A stretch of 64,000 bases of DNA from assembly GCA_018667335.1 (NCBI GenBank), contig JABIVD010000028.1, positions 25,354-89,353 on the forward strand. Direction: 5' to 3'. Shown here one piece after another: positions 50,275 to 55,064 of this stretch; within the stretch, counting starts at the first letter, position 1; every line of letters starts with the position of its first letter. Source of the stretch: Rhodospirillaceae bacterium (lineage in GTDB: Bacteria; Pseudomonadota; Alphaproteobacteria; UBA6615). Position numbers and translations under genes: made by a program. The notes under the pieces are model-generated. The model was not told the origin of the DNA and searched no databases. It saw only the letters and a list, made by a program, of their open reading frames with translations.

Positions 50275-51876
50275 ATGATCGTTCGAACCAATCGGTATGC
50301 AGCTTTATCCGGCGCGACCATTCTCGTCGCGGGCATCATGTTCGCCGCGCCCGCGCTGGCACAGTCTGGTGAATTGTCACCCCAGGCGCAGGCGCTCGAT
50401 ACCAACAGTAACGGCGTCGTCGAACGCGCCGAAGCACTCGGTCCGGCGGCCGCGAATTTCGACACGATCGACCTGGACAAGAGTGACACCCTCGACGGTG
50501 ACGAGCTGCGCCACTTTTTTGCCGGCGGCCCCCGGCCCGAACCCAAGGCCACCGCAGCCAGCGCACCCGCTGAACCGCTCGCGGGGCCTGCCGTGGCCAT
50601 GGACGCCAACAGCAACGGGTTGATCGAAAGGGAAGAGGCGCAGGGACCGGCTGCCACCAACTTCGACACGATCGATCTCGACAAGAACGGGACCCTCGAC
50701 GGGTCTGAACTGCGCTTCTTCTTCAGGGGTGGCGAGCGCCCGGGCGGCCCTGCGCAGACGGCCGACAAGAAACCCGACGCAGGCGCGAAACCCGGGGGCG
50801 CCGCCGAGGGTGGACCGCCGCCCGCGCGCGTGGTGCTTGATGAGGTGATCGAGGAACGGATCGGCCAGACCACGCCGGTCGTGGGCCGCATCGTGGCCCG
50901 GCAGTCTGGCCCGATCGCCGCGCGGATCGGCGGCGCGGTCGTGGACATGAGCGTAGATGTCGGGGATCGCGTCGCGACCGGCGACGTGCTGGCGCAGATA
51001 GACCGGGAACGCATGCAACTCGAGCGTGACCGGTATTCTGCGATCGTCTCACAACAGCGGGCCAACCTGACGGCCGAACGCGCGGACCTCGAGCAAACCC
51101 AGAACGAACTGAACCGGCTGGAAGGCATTCGCAAATCGGCCGCCTTCTCTCAGGCCCGCTTTGAGGATGCGGTTCAGGCCGTTGCCTCACAGACCGGCAC
51201 CGTCGCAGAGACCCGCGCCCTGCTGGCGCAGGCACAGGCGCAGCTGAAGCGCGCCGACCGGGACCTGACGGACACGGAGATTCTCGCCCCCTATCCCGGG
51301 GTGATCAGCGAGACCCACACCGAAGTTGGCGCTTATCTGTCAGTCGGCAATCCGGTCGTGACCATCATCAACGACCTAGACTTGGAAATCGAAGCCGACG
51401 TCCCGACCGCGCGAATCGCGGGACTGGCCGACGGGGATGCGGTGAGCATCCGGGTCAGCGCGGGCAAGACGATCCCGGCCACGTTGCGTGCGGTGGTGCC
51501 GAGCGAAAACCCCCGAACGCGAACCCGGCCTGTGCGCTTCACACCCGACTTTACCGGACTGAACATGGCCCTGGCCGACAACCAAAGCGTCACCGTTCTG
51601 ATTCCCGTTGGCGGATCGCGCGACGCCGTCACGGTTGCCAAGGACGCGGTCACGCAGCGAAACGGCCAGAGCATGGTCTTTGTTTCGAACAACGGACGCG
51701 CGCAACCGCGACCCGTGACGACAAGTGAGGCAACCGGCGGCCGCCTTGTCGTGCTCTCGGGCCTGAAGGCGGGGGACATGGTCGTGGTGCGCGGCAATGA
51801 ACGCCTGCGTCCCGGCCAACGCCTGCTGGATGTGAATGCCGGCAATGCCACAGCAAACGGCAGCGGCGGAGGCTAA
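50275..51876 (+). CDS. RND periplasmic adaptor (membrane fusion protein) with four N-terminal EF-hand loops
   Basis: Signal peptide (APALA/Q); loops DTNSNGVVERAE, DLDKSDTLDGDE, DANSNGLIEREE, DLDKNGTLDGSE; then MFP lipoyl/hairpin core (VDVGDRVATGDVLAQID, ILAPYPGVI, GLKAGDMVVVRG). Confidence 0.88.
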   Translation: MIVRTNRYAALSGATILVAGIMFAAPALAQSGELSPQAQALDTNSNGVVERAEALGPAAANFDTIDLDKSDTLDGDELRHFFAGGPRPEPKATAASAPAEPLAGPAVAMDANSNGLIEREEAQGPAATNFDTIDLDKNGTLDGSELRFFFRGGERPGGPAQTADKKPDAGAKPGGAAEGGPPPARVVLDEVIEERIGQTTPVVGRIVARQSGPIAARIGGAVVDMSVDVGDRVATGDVLAQIDRERMQLERDRYSAIVSQQRANLTAERADLEQTQNELNRLEGIRKSAAFSQARFEDAVQAVASQTGTVAETRALLAQAQAQLKRADRDLTDTEILAPYPGVISETHTEVGAYLSVGNPVVTIINDLDLEIEADVPTARIAGLADGDAVSIRVSAGKTIPATLRAVVPSENPRTRTRPVRFTPDFTGLNMALADNQSVTVLIPVGGSRDAVTVAKDAVTQRNGQSMVFVSNNGRAQPRPVTTSEATGGRLVVLSGLKAGDMVVVRGNERLRPGQRLLDVNAGNATANGSGGG

Positions 51877-51881
51877 CCCAG

Positions 51882-54800: not shown

Positions 54801-55064
54801 GCGATCATGCTGGCGACCCAGAACAGGGTTCGGCCGATCTTCATGTCGACGCTGACTTCGGTGTTTGGCATGTTGCCCTTGGTGGTGTCCCCCGGGGCCG
54901 GATCGGAGCTGTATCGCGGTCTGGGCTCGGTCGTGCTTGGCGGGCTGTCGTTATCGGCCGTGCTCACGTTGGCGATTGTGCCGCCAATGATGTCGATCAC
55001 GGTCGGCTGGCGCGAGCGCAAACGGGACAAGCAGCCCGACCCCAGCCCGACCCCGGCGCAATAG
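51882..55064 (+). CDS. AcrB/AcrD/AcrF family RND transporter permease
   Basis: 1060 aa; SWPGASPLEVE, AVGMVVDAAIVVLENI, GIVVNNAILLV, RVRPIFMSTLT. Confidence 0.95.
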   Translation: MNLISASIHRPIAVIAVVIMIIMFGWVALQRIPIQLAPDVRQPVIIVDTSWPGASPLEVEREVVNRQEDVLKGIEGVRKIESRARTGRADITLEFAPSQNMDRALLLVANRLDRVSGYPEETDEPTLRTSGTDDNAIAWFVLRRKADNDRDLLTYGDFLEDVVQERIERIPGISGVNIFGETEREMRIIMDPEQLAQFRLTISDVVDRLRAENASISGGDVEEGKRAYVVRTEGDFTTTEQVLDVVLRSDAELEDGRIGRITVRDIAHVELGYKEARALPHRFDERAMAFNMTREQGANVLTVMDEVRRVVADLAEGPLDRVGLIVENVFDETLYVNSAISLVQQNIIVGGILAALVLMLFLRSWRPTLVVSLAIPVSVIGSFVAMAALGRSLNVISLAGIAFAVGMVVDAAIVVLENIFRLRQEGYSRAEAAQMGASQVWPAVLVSSLTTVMVFIPILVMELEAGQLFRDIAVAISVSVLLSLLVSVTVIPALANRLLVSSAAEGGKMMRIPLLDDFAHGFVTFWQDFTRMVVRSKLRALVVVGAIILASGAFTWAFAPKLDYLPTGNRNFVFGFVNVPPGYNLSTVTEITERIANRTRNLWASETGPESEPGEPPKFQRFIRVPFAGRAFIGGTSVDPARAAELIPVLQNAGRQDPGVLTFPSQPSLFGRSLGSGRTIDVDIRGSDLEQIYQVAFDVFIRLAPRFPFSEGNQVRPIPSLTLSAPEVRVEPNRLKLADNGLSARALGQAIDAFNDGLRVAEITVDGKRIDLTLTGTPNIIDQTQGIGSLPVVTRDGRIVPVEGLADVRITSGPTEVRRADRARTVRLQVRPNADTPLQGAFELIREEIVEPMQEAGLPEGVSIRLTGTADKLLETWNELVIDLLLAIVIVYLVMAVLFESFVYPLIIMLTVPVAAAGGIAGLAVLNIWVLQPLDMLTMLGFVILTGIVVNNAILLVHQTLYHIREDGMNADDAIMLATQNRVRPIFMSTLTSVFGMLPLVVSPGAGSELYRGLGSVVLGGLSLSAVLTLAIVPPMMSITVGWRERKRDKQPDPSPTPAQ

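What the first reader, a model, noticed from the sequence alone, without database searches (positions are those of the whole stretch)
50275..55064. RND efflux adaptor carrying four EF-hand calcium-binding loops
Seen: after a cleavable-looking signal peptide come two copies of an EF-hand pair, offset by exactly 204 nt (loops at 50398, 50470, 50602, 50674). Each loop has D/N at positions 1, 3 and 5 (one S) and E at position 12. A normal membrane-fusion core follows and the permease gene starts 5 nt later. Established: typical adaptors are anchored by a lipid or a TM helix and have no such sensor. Inference: a periplasmic Ca2+-gated or Ca2+-assembled efflux pump, or a Ca/metal-handling exporter. 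No outer-membrane factor gene is in the window.
Basis: partly seen in the sequence, partly recalled or inferred. Interest (0 to 1): 0.75.

Follow-up and report, generated by a model that had tools for sequence, protein, structure and literature searches.

The report
Efflux-pump adaptor with tethered EF-hand pairs
The periplasmic adaptor of a two-gene RND efflux pump in an uncultured marine alphaproteobacterium really does carry two small calcium-binding (EF-hand pair) domains on flexible tethers; dozens of related genomes share this fusion and I found no paper describing it, but what it does for the pump is untested.

Summary
Gene 50275-51876 (+) encodes a 533-aa RND adaptor. It has a cleavable-type signal peptide with no Cys, two 54-aa EF-hand pair units (loops at 50398, 50470, 50602, 50674), Pro/Gly/Ala-rich linkers and a normal four-domain adaptor core. 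The permease gene starts 5 nt downstream.

The fusion is not an artefact.
- All full-length proteins among the top 120 homologues carry 2, 4 or 6 loops.
- 31 species-level genomes carry it, including closed chromosomes.
- At least 11 seawater metagenome runs from at least 8 studies hold the exact stretch.
- Metatranscriptome contigs cover the EF-coding region.

New here:
- The loops of a pair are 24 residues apart, and the closest solved relatives by sequence are lanmodulins. The lanmodulin hallmarks (Pro at loop position 2, small stand-alone protein) are missing.
- EF-less orthologues such as Kiloniella occupy the same hdaH-xseB-ispA locus, with the signal peptide running straight into the core.
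- EF copy number changed repeatedly.

Most likely the units are Ca2+-loaded accessory domains at the membrane-proximal end of an anchor-less adaptor. The pump itself looks like a tripartite, distantly HAE1-like system whose outer-membrane factor is encoded elsewhere. Ca2+ gating or metal hand-off is possible but unsupported. I rate it a new variant of a known kind, of moderate interest.

The parts
50261..50264 (+). GGAG ribosome-binding site, 10 nt before the ATG at 50275
   Evidence: Read from the sequence. Homologue N-termini align to the start at 50275, not to the TTG at 50185.
50275..51876 (+). RND periplasmic adaptor (MFP) gene, 533 aa (P0001)
   Evidence: TIGR01730 scores 196.8 bits against a cutoff of 94.9. 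Pfam finds HlyD_3 and HlyD_D23. The AF2 model has pLDDT 82. Foldseek matches AcrA, TMexC, MacA and MexA at E 1e-27 to 1e-24.
50275..50364 (+). Sec-type signal peptide, MIVRTNRYAALSGATILVAGIMFAAPALA|Q; no Cys, no lipobox
   Evidence: An A-x-A|Q site about 10-12 residues before the first loop recurs in most of the ~120 homologues, though not in all (e.g. P0016, P0028, P0050). Cys count is 0. Cleavage itself is inferred.
50365..50526 (+). EF-hand pair unit 1 (aa 31-84); loops at 50398-50433 and 50470-50505
   Evidence: Canonical loops 24 residues apart. Net charge -8. AF2 pLDDT is about 90, with a strand in each loop consistent with the short sheet that pairs EF loops.
50527..50568 (+). Linker 1 (aa 85-98), 64% Pro/Gly/Ala, predicted disordered
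   Evidence: pLDDT below 50 for residues 92-97. Composition. Length varies among homologues.
50569..50730 (+). EF-hand pair unit 2 (aa 99-152); loops at 50602-50637 and 50674-50709
   Evidence: Direct repeat of unit 1, offset 204 nt. Best Pfam EF-hand stretch is aa 130-151. This is the stretch that aligns to lanmodulins 8fns and 6mi5.
50731..50829 (+). Linker 2 (aa 153-185), 67% Pro/Gly/Ala tether to the membrane-proximal domain
   Evidence: pLDDT below 50 for residues 159-179. Composition.
50830..51873 (+). Adaptor core (aa 186-533): membrane-proximal, beta-barrel and lipoyl domains plus alpha-hairpin (helices aa 244-284 and 293-332, nt 51004-51270)
   Evidence: AF2 secondary structure and Foldseek. 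The hairpin-tip motif R281-x3-I/L285-x6-S292 is conserved: 41/41 R, 41/41 I or L, 37/41 S.
51882..55064 (+). RND permease, 1060 aa
   Evidence: ACR_tran scores 673.6 bits. Best NCBIfam is RND_permease_2 at 575 bits, below its 1250 cutoff. Best PDB matches are AdeG 8yr0, BpeF 7wlv, 8zxs and OqxB 7cz9. A permease follows the adaptor in 72 of 80 related loci.
55123..55821 (+). Crp/Fnr-type cNMP-binding regulator, 58 nt after the permease; possibly co-transcribed
   Evidence: Pfam cNMP_binding plus HTH_Crp_2. A terminator-like hairpin lies at 55811-55826. A crp homologue follows the permease in loci L001, L002 and L004 and in 7 of 80 GTDB loci. Membership in the unit is uncertain.

Best explanation
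This is a genuine, vertically inherited two-gene RND efflux unit (adaptor plus permease) of an uncultured marine Rhodospirillaceae-like alphaproteobacterium. After signal-peptide cleavage the adaptor is a soluble, anchor-less periplasmic protein. Its N-terminus carries two compact EF-hand pair domains: four canonical loops, with the two loops of a pair only 12 residues apart as in lanmodulin. The domains are strung on disordered Pro/Gly/Ala tethers that join the membrane-proximal domain. The loops most likely bind Ca2+. They have Glu at position 12, Gly at 6, a hydrophobic residue at 8 and an acidic residue at 9, with Asn or Ser rather than Asp at some ligand positions. In seawater they would be largely occupied, so the units are folded, strongly acidic beads sitting near the inner-membrane end of the hexameric adaptor ring (24 sites per pump). 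The most likely role is an accessory, cation-loaded module that helps an anchor-less adaptor stay stable, stay near the pump or assemble on it. It is unlikely to be part of the substrate path. The pump itself should be tripartite: it has a long alpha-hairpin with a conserved R-x3-I/L-x6-S tip motif, and its outer-membrane factor would be encoded elsewhere. It exports an unknown, probably organic, substrate. Shown: anatomy, conservation, phylogeny, synteny, presence in many metagenomes and in metatranscriptome contigs. Inferred: signal-peptide cleavage, Ca2+ binding, occupancy, and any effect on the pump.
For: - EF-hand Pfam models pass their gathering scores.
- Loop ligand positions are 98-100% conserved over 185 pair units, while linkers and surface positions vary.
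- Each pair is modelled at pLDDT about 90 with a strand in each loop, and both linkers fall below 50.
- The adaptor core passes TIGR01730 and superposes on AcrA, MexA, MacA and TMexC.
- The hairpin-tip motif is conserved.
- All but one (a 333-aa fragment) of the top 120 homologues carry 2, 4 or 6 loops.
- 31 species-level genomes carry the fusion. 49 EF-less orthologues have the signal peptide running straight into the core, and 32 of them share the hdaH-xseB-ispA neighbourhood.
- EF rows form two well-supported clades, and copy number changes within both.
- The exact sequence is in at least 11 seawater or marine metagenome runs from at least 8 studies.
- Metatranscriptome contigs with no differences from the window cover 50225-50647, 51177-51394, 51731-51878 and parts of the permease.
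- An unrelated TM-anchored adaptor (P0135) carries three such pairs at its C-terminus. In an adaptor that end also lies in the membrane-proximal domain (general knowledge of the fold), so both fusions put the beads in the same place.
Against: - No metal-binding or efflux measurement exists for any member.
- EF-less orthologues show the module is dispensable for the basic pump.
- The EF pair is a widespread repeat, found mostly in stand-alone proteins and occasionally on other enzymes. It could therefore be a generic periplasmic appendage with no pump-specific role.
- Conserved residues outside the ligands look like core residues, so no conserved docking surface is evident.
- Signal-peptide cleavage was not predicted with a dedicated tool, so an uncleaved signal anchor is not excluded.
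- The C-terminal fusion P0135 is a single cluster.
- Metatranscriptome contigs can contain DNA carry-over.
Confidence: 0.5

Rival explanations
1. Generic portable appendage. The compact EF pair is a general periplasmic or secreted module that folds on Ca2+ outside the cytoplasm. Some Alphaproteobacteria attach it behind signal peptides for solubility, stability or spacing. It has no role specific to efflux.
For: A profile of the module finds 5993 representative proteins at E<=1e-3 and 707 at E<=1e-10. Most are short or pure EF-repeat proteins, with rare fusions to arylsulfotransferase, Lactamase_B_2 and PDZ. EF-less orthologues sit in the same locus. Copy number is labile. Earlier scan notes on other genomes report the same module on unrelated periplasmic proteins; I confirmed this only in part.
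Against: Within the adaptor clades the module has been kept under strong constraint across 44-87% identical proteins, and no loss is seen inside the two starred EF clades. An independent fusion to a different adaptor type places the beads at the same membrane-proximal end. Among the top hits that carry another domain, adaptors are the commonest partner, though the query biases this.
Confidence: 0.25
2. Metal capture or switch. As in the N-terminal Met-rich segment of CusB, the tethered EF units bind a hard cation (Ca2+, or Cd2+/Pb2+/Mn2+, or a rare-earth ion) and either hand it to the permease or switch the pump on. The system would then be a cation exporter or a cation-gated pump.
For: - The module sits where CusB has its metal site, between the signal-peptide cleavage site and the membrane-proximal domain (general knowledge; anatomy).
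- Like CusB, the adaptor lacks an anchor.
- The second-best NCBIfam hit for the adaptor is the CzcB/NccB model, at 116.6 bits.
- Permease TM4 has a single Asp (VDAAIV). This resembles the CusA-type motif as I recall it, not the HAE1 Asp-Asp.
- The closest solved relatives of the EF unit are lanthanide-binding lanmodulins.
- A lanthanum-induced RND pump of unknown role has been reported in Methylobacillus flagellatus (PMC9988556).
Against: - The permease scores higher on HAE-type models (575 and 489 bits) than on the CusA/CzcA model (317 bits, cutoff 701). Its best solved relatives are the multidrug pumps AdeG, BpeF and OqxB.
- The CzcB model score is far below its cutoff of 319.
- The lanmodulin hallmarks are absent: no Pro at loop position 2, and odd loops have Asn at 3 and 5, so fewer carboxylates.
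- Exporting Ca2+ from the periplasm of a marine cell sitting in about 10 mM Ca2+ makes little physiological sense.
- Variable copy number and the existence of EF-less orthologues argue against an obligatory relay.
Confidence: 0.2
3. Assembly artefact or chimeric gene call. The EF-hand region and the adaptor core would belong to different genes or organisms.
For: None found.
Against: The identical protein occurs in another assembly (P0002). Relatives at 44-87% identity show the same architecture in 31 species-level genomes, including the closed chromosomes OZ253937.1 and OZ251539.1. All 105 sampled 31-mers across the signal-peptide/EF/core junction are present in at least 11 runs from at least 8 studies. 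There is a single open frame with conserved linkers.
Confidence: 0.01

Closest known systems
AcrA / MexA / TMexC / MacA-type periplasmic adaptors (membrane-fusion proteins) of tripartite efflux pumps
   Same: Same four-domain core (membrane-proximal, beta-barrel, lipoyl, alpha-hairpin). It passes TIGR01730, Foldseek gives E 1e-27 to 1e-24, the hairpin-tip R-x3-L-x6-S type motif is present, and the gene is immediately followed by an RND permease.
   Different: There is no lipobox or retained TM anchor. About 155 extra N-terminal residues form two EF-hand pair domains on disordered tethers. No OMF gene lies in the operon or in any of six annotated neighbourhoods.
Lanmodulin (LanM; PDB 6mi5 Methylorubrum extorquens, 8fns Hansschlegelia quercus)
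   Same: These are the best sequence matches in the PDB (E 5e-6 and 7e-6). The gapless alignment spans loop, 12-residue connector and loop. There is an acidic residue at loop position 9, both proteins are periplasmic, and each has four EF hands in total.
   Different: No Pro at loop position 2. Odd loops are D-x-N-x-N, which is less carboxylate-rich. The two pairs are separated by a 32-residue linker between loops 2 and 3 instead of forming one three-helix bundle. The module is part of a 533-aa protein, not a small stand-alone protein under 200 aa. The NCBIfam LanM model scores 54 bits against a cutoff of 135. Foldseek did not place lanmodulin among the top 50 hits.
CusB of the CusCBA Cu/Ag pump (N-terminal metal-binding segment); ZneB and CzcB heavy-metal adaptors
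   Same: Soluble, signal-peptide-processed adaptor with a flexible metal-binding N-terminal extension ahead of the membrane-proximal domain (general knowledge). CusB and ZneB are among the structural matches (ranks 22, 33, 39).
   Different: CusB uses three Met residues for soft Cu(I)/Ag(I), whereas here there are folded EF-hand domains for hard cations. The partner permease is not of the CusA/CzcA family by HMM score (317 bits, cutoff 701). The CzcB model scores 116.6 against a cutoff of 319.
Stand-alone bacterial multi-EF-hand repeat proteins (annotated 'Ca2+-binding EF-hand superfamily protein')
   Same: They share the same compact pair unit, D-x-[ND]-x-[ND]-G-x-[IL]-x-x-x-E-A-x-G-x-[LIV]-x-x-x-F-D-x-[IV]-D-x-[ND]-x-[DSN]-G, repeated as beads.
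   Different: Those proteins consist only of repeats, whereas here one to three units are fused to an efflux adaptor.

Membership tests
RND periplasmic adaptor (MFP, TIGR01730) | Family HMM above its curated cutoff | tested here: met
   TIGR01730 scores 196.8 bits against a cutoff of 94.9, over aa 190-516.
RND periplasmic adaptor (MFP, TIGR01730) | Four-domain fold with an alpha-helical hairpin | tested here: met
   AF2 gives helices 244-284 and 293-332 plus beta domains at pLDDT above 85. Foldseek matches AcrA, MexA and MacA at E<=1e-24.
RND periplasmic adaptor (MFP, TIGR01730) | Encoded next to an RND permease | tested here: met
   The permease starts 5 nt downstream. The same pairing is seen in 72 of 80 related loci.
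RND periplasmic adaptor (MFP, TIGR01730) | Works with an outer-membrane factor (TolC/OprM type) | not testable with these tools
   No OEP-domain ORF was found among the 28 window ORFs scanned with Pfam or in six annotated neighbourhoods. The conserved hairpin-tip motif suggests a partner encoded elsewhere.
EF-hand (Pfam PF13405 / PF00036 / PF13499) | 12-residue loop with ligands at positions 1, 3, 5 and 12, Gly at 6 and a hydrophobic residue at 8; HMM above its gathering score | tested here: met
   Scores of 34.6, 33.0 and 32.1 bits against cutoffs of 25, 25.4 and 30. Loops listed, conservation. Loop 2 has Asp rather than Gly at position 6.
EF-hand (Pfam PF13405 / PF00036 / PF13499) | Loops occur as a structurally paired lobe | tested here: met
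   In the AF2 models each loop holds a two-residue strand, consistent with the short sheet that pairs EF loops, at pLDDT 84-92. This is a prediction only.
EF-hand (Pfam PF13405 / PF00036 / PF13499) | Binds Ca2+ | not testable with these tools
   Needs ITC, CD or Tb3+ luminescence on the purified aa 31-152 fragment.
Lanmodulin (LanM) | Four EF hands with adjacent hands separated by 12-13 residues (PMC10232371) | tested here: inconclusive
   There are four loops. The gap is 12 residues within each pair but 32 residues between loops 2 and 3.
Lanmodulin (LanM) | At least one EF hand with Pro at position 2 | tested here: not met
   Position 2 is T, L, A and L here. Pro is not among the four commonest residues at position 2 in 185 pair units.
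Lanmodulin (LanM) | Small stand-alone protein (under 200 aa) and NCBIfam NF053806 above cutoff | tested here: not met
   The protein is a 533-aa fusion. NF053806 scores 54 bits against a cutoff of 135.
Heavy-metal (HME) RND system, CusCBA/CzcCBA type | Permease in the CusA/CzcA family (TIGR00914) and adaptor in the CzcB/NccB family (TIGR00999) | tested here: not met
   317.2 bits against a cutoff of 701.45, and 116.6 bits against a cutoff of 319.3.
HAE1 multidrug RND permease (AcrB/MexB type) | Family HMMs above cutoff | tested here: not met
   NF033617 scores 575 (cutoff 1250), NF000282 scores 489 (cutoff 1250) and TIGR00915 scores 429 (cutoff 940). The permease belongs to the superfamily (ACR_tran 673.6 bits) but is only a distant relative.
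HAE1 multidrug RND permease (AcrB/MexB type) | TM4 Asp-Asp and TM10 Lys proton relay | tested here: inconclusive
   TM4 reads VDAAIVVLEN (one Asp) and TM10 reads VVNNAILLV (Asn where I recall the AcrB Lys940). Both are conserved in 7 orthologues. The correspondence to AcrB rests on motif inspection from memory, not on a computed alignment.

The most novel reading that the evidence does not exclude
The tethered EF-hand beads are a cation-operated device. Occupancy by Ca2+, or by a scarcer hard cation such as a rare-earth ion or Cd2+/Pb2+, would control recruitment of an anchor-less adaptor to its permease, or would feed the cation to an atypical permease with a single Asp in TM4 and Asn at the TM10 relay position. 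This would be the first tripartite RND pump whose adaptor is directly regulated or fed through EF-hand domains. It would also be a natural lanmodulin-like module in a transport machine.
Probability: 0.2. Interest if true: 0.8.

Novelty: new variant of a known kind. Interest (0 to 1): 0.55.

Why it matters
RND adaptors are usually seen as passive or substrate-sensing bridges. The only well-studied metal-binding extensions are the soft-metal sites of heavy-metal adaptors such as CusB.

A conserved clade of adaptors carrying folded EF-hand domains would add a new kind of input, or a new stabilising element, to tripartite pumps. The clade spans 31 species-level genomes and over 100 protein clusters, and the gene appears in seawater metatranscriptome contigs.

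The family also provides a natural series for experiments: 0, 1, 2 or 3 EF pairs on the same orthologous pump, plus one case with the pairs at the other terminus. The units are compact, lanmodulin-like EF pairs without the Pro signature. That makes them useful comparison points for what sets Ca2+ against lanthanide selectivity.

If the module proves to be only a generic Ca2+-folded appendage, the finding is an annotation refinement of modest interest.

Tried and rejected
- **Structural search with the EF module alone** gave only weak calmodulin- and troponin-like matches (best E 1.9e-3, TM about 0.3). Lanmodulin was not in the top 50, so the fold search does not discriminate.
- **Literature searches** found no paper on this fusion. 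I tried EF-hand with periplasmic adaptor and RND, EF-hand with membrane fusion protein, efflux and calcium-binding, EF-hand with HlyD, and lanmodulin with RND and efflux.
- **A Crp box upstream of the adaptor gene** was not found. The three exact TGTGA-N6-TCAC sites in the window lie at 55863, 60222 and 60237, and the overall count is at chance level.
- **The promoter scan** found nothing convincing upstream of 50275.
- **Ca2+-dependent membrane anchoring as a substitute for a lipid anchor** was considered and down-weighted, because EF-less orthologues are equally anchor-less.
- **C-terminal EF fusions as a common second architecture** was rejected. The relatives of P0135 have Gly/Pro-rich tails without EF loops, so it is a singleton.
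- **L035 and L036** looked like truncated EF-less genes. Inspecting the upstream DNA showed ordinary signal peptides and no EF remnants in any frame.
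Full report
**1.

The frame starting at ATG 50275 (GGAG at 50261-50264) encodes a 533-aa protein, P0001.
- aa 42, nt 50398: DTNSNGVVERAE
- aa 66, nt 50470: DLDKSDTLDGDE
- aa 110, nt 50602: DANSNGLIEREE
- aa 134, nt 50674: DLDKNGTLDGSE

The two pair units are a direct DNA repeat offset by 204 nt, 129 nt long at 71% identity. Pfam EF-hand_6, EF-hand_1 and EF-hand_7 pass their gathering scores. HlyD_3, HlyD_D23 and TIGR01730 (196.8 bits against 94.9) identify the rest as an RND adaptor.

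The permease is 1060 aa (ACR_tran 673.6 bits) and starts 5 nt after the adaptor stop. The adaptor has no Cys, so no lipobox. None of the 28 window ORFs scanned with Pfam carries an outer-membrane-factor domain.

**2. Anatomy**

From N- to C-terminus:
- signal peptide, aa 1-30
- EF pair 1, aa 31-84, net charge -8
- linker 1, aa 85-98, 64% Pro/Gly/Ala
- EF pair 2, aa 99-152, net charge -6
- linker 2, aa 153-185, 67% Pro/Gly/Ala
- adaptor core, aa 186-533

The AlphaFold model, built on a 41-sequence alignment, has mean pLDDT 82. Both EF pairs score about 90, and each loop holds a short strand consistent with the sheet that pairs EF loops. Both linkers fall below 50. The core has two roughly 40-residue hairpin helices, 244-284 and 293-332.

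Foldseek puts the core next to AcrA, TMexC, MacA and MexA at E 1e-27 to 1e-24. ZneB and CusB come further down.

The hairpin tip carries R281-x3-I/L285-x6-S292: R in 41/41, I or L in 41/41, S in 37/41. This matches what I recall as the RLS motif that adaptors use to dock on TolC-type channels. I therefore infer a tripartite pump whose outer-membrane factor is encoded elsewhere.

An A-x-A|Q signal-peptidase-type site lies 10-12 residues before the first loop and recurs in most of about 120 homologues. Cleavage is inferred, not tested.

**3. The fusion is real and widespread**

- The top 120 hits of a 5.8-billion-protein search all carry 2, 4 or 6 loops, apart from one 333-aa fragment with none and one truncated entry with three. 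Spacing within a pair is always 24 residues start to start.
- A scan of GTDB species representatives found 31 genomes with the fusion. All are uncultured MAGs: Rhodospirillaceae, unclassified Alphaproteobacteria, Defluviicoccus, Hyphomicrobiaceae and Methyloligellaceae. Two are closed chromosomes, OZ253937.1 and OZ251539.1.
- All sampled 31-mers across 50200-51200 occur in at least 11 marine or seawater metagenome runs from at least 8 studies.
- Metatranscriptome contigs with no differences from the window cover 50225-50391, 50323-50478, 50411-50647, 51177-51394, 51731-51878 and two permease segments. The gene, including its EF-coding part, therefore appears to be transcribed in the sea. DNA carry-over into such libraries cannot be excluded.

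**4. What the EF unit is**

Over 185 pair units the consensus is:

L-S-x-x-A-x-x-x-[D-x-N-x-N-G-V-I-E-R-x-E]-A-x-G-P-x-A-A-N-F-D-T-I-[D-x-D-K-S-G-T-L-D-G-x-E]-L-x-x-F-F-x-G-G

Positions 1 and 12 are invariant. Position 6 is 87-98% Gly, position 8 is always hydrophobic and position 9 is 99% Asp or Glu.

Only 12 residues separate the two loops of a pair. The best sequence matches among all solved structures are the lanmodulins 8fns (E 5.3e-6) and 6mi5 (7e-6), aligned without gaps across loop, connector and loop. The NCBIfam LanM model scores 54 bits, below its cutoff of 135.

The lanmodulin criteria are published: four EF hands, 12-13 residues between adjacent hands, Pro at loop position 2 in at least one hand, and less than 200 residues (PMC10232371; PMC12828617). 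Against these:
- The unit shares the short spacing and the acidic position 9.
- It lacks Pro at position 2.
- Its odd loops have Asn at positions 3 and 5.
- It is split into two independent beads.
- It is part of a 533-aa protein.

The unit is a lanmodulin-like compact EF pair, not a lanmodulin. Glu at position 12 and the Asn/Ser ligands fit Ca2+ best. That is an inference from general EF-hand chemistry.

A profile of the module finds 5993 representative proteins at E<=1e-3 and 707 at E<=1e-10. Of 56 sampled, 8 were adaptors by Pfam at E<=1e-5. Most of the rest were pure EF-repeat proteins, with single cases fused to arylsulfotransferase, Lactamase_B_2 and PDZ. The unit is therefore a portable bacterial repeat.

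One further case is notable. P0135 is a different, TM-anchored adaptor with three such pairs at its C-terminus. It is a singleton, since its relatives have Gly/Pro tails without EF loops. In adaptors both termini lie in the membrane-proximal domain (general knowledge of the fold), so both fusions place the beads at the same end of the molecule.

**5. Evolution and context**

Forty-nine EF-less orthologues have the same kind of signal peptide, followed within about 5-12 residues by the conserved start of the core. They are 44-54% identical in the core and include cultured Kiloniella laminariae, Magnetovibrio and Thalassospiraceae. The anchor-less state therefore predates the EF module.

The divergent hdaH-xseB-ispA(-dxs) neighbourhood is shared by 13 of 31 EF-bearing loci and 32 of 49 EF-less loci. 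A permease follows the adaptor in 72 of 80 loci. This is an old, vertically inherited locus, not a mobile resistance cassette.

In a maximum-likelihood tree of the cores, EF-bearing rows fall into two strongly supported clades. Forty-three EF-less rows form one clade. A single origin is not excluded. Units of 2, 4 and 6 loops interchange repeatedly between close relatives.

No annotated neighbourhood contains an OMF gene. A Crp-type regulator follows the permease here and in closer relatives. No Crp box precedes the adaptor gene.

**6. The permease**

The permease is a distant member of the AcrB superfamily.
- Its best curated model is RND_permease_2, at 575 bits against a cutoff of 1250. The CusA/CzcA model scores 317 against 701.
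- Its best solved relatives are AdeG (8yr0), BpeF (7wlv), 8zxs and OqxB (7cz9), at about 300 bits.
- TM4 has a single Asp (VDAAIVVLEN) and TM10 reads VVNNAILLV. Both are invariant in seven orthologues.
- Equating these with the AcrB relay residues rests on my memory of the AcrB and CusA motifs, so I leave that point open.

**7. Mechanism**

My best reading, at confidence 0.5: the beads are Ca2+-loaded, folded, acidic accessory domains tethered to the inner-membrane end of a soluble adaptor. They aid its stability, local retention or assembly on the pump.

In favour:
- Ligand positions are strongly conserved, while the surfaces are variable.
- The tethers are flexible.
- Copy number is labile.
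- The module is dispensable in orthologues.
- The habitat is marine.
- An independent fusion places the beads at the same end of the adaptor.

Rivals:
- a generic appendage with no pump-specific role (0.25)
- an assembly artefact (0.01, refuted)

**8. Novelty**

I found no paper describing an EF-hand-bearing efflux adaptor. Databases annotate these proteins simply as adaptor subunits.

Earlier notes of this scan on other genomes reached the same architecture and similar caution. They are not independent evidence. I re-derived the lanmodulin link, the CusB analogy and, in part, the portability of the module.

I class this as a new variant of a known kind, interest 0.55.

Noticed in passing
P0135 (protein; not in the window): A different, TM-anchored RND/HlyD-type adaptor (617 aa) carries three compact EF-hand pairs at its C-terminus on Gly-rich tethers. 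Its nearest relatives have Gly/Pro-rich tails without EF loops.
   Followed up: partly
Homologues P0050, P0094, P0096-P0111, P0113, P0116, P0118-P0121 and P0125: In the more distant EF clade, position 2 of the second loop is Cys (DCDKSG or DCNKSG). In P0125, the one sequence I read in full, a second Cys follows the unit (FFTGEECPK), suggesting a disulfide staple. The window protein has no Cys at all.
   Followed up: no
window 45959-50083 (-) and loci L007-L086: The divergent gene block dxs, ispA, xseB and a histone-deacetylase-family gene sits next to the adaptor-permease pair. It does so in 13 of 31 EF-bearing and 32 of 49 EF-less orthologous loci, which is unusually stable synteny between isoprenoid-precursor genes and an RND pump.
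   Followed up: partly
window 55123-62093: Downstream of the permease lie a Crp-type regulator, a TPR plus beta-barrel outer-membrane protein (weak SlipAM match), a CHASE2 adenylate/guanylate cyclase and a FecR-domain protein. Exact TGTGA-N6-TCAC sites lie at 55863, 60222 and 60237. This is the cAMP circuit flagged in another note of this scan. Only the Crp gene travels with the pump in relatives.
   Followed up: partly
window 5131-8157 (-): A 1008-aa ORF has only weak, sub-threshold matches to apolipoprotein and apolipophorin helical repeats. It may be a long amphipathic-helix repeat protein of unknown role.
   Followed up: no
window 10376-12460 (-) and 13324-14613 (-): A second class III nucleotide cyclase (DUF5939 plus Guanylate_cyc) and an EAL-domain protein lie in the same window, so the region is rich in cyclic-nucleotide signalling genes.
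   Followed up: no
L016 2118-2981 and L008: In L016 the adaptor frame stops after 287 aa and the permease match starts 768 nt later, so the gene may be frameshifted. L008 shows only 3 loops by the strict pattern, so one loop deviates.
   Followed up: no
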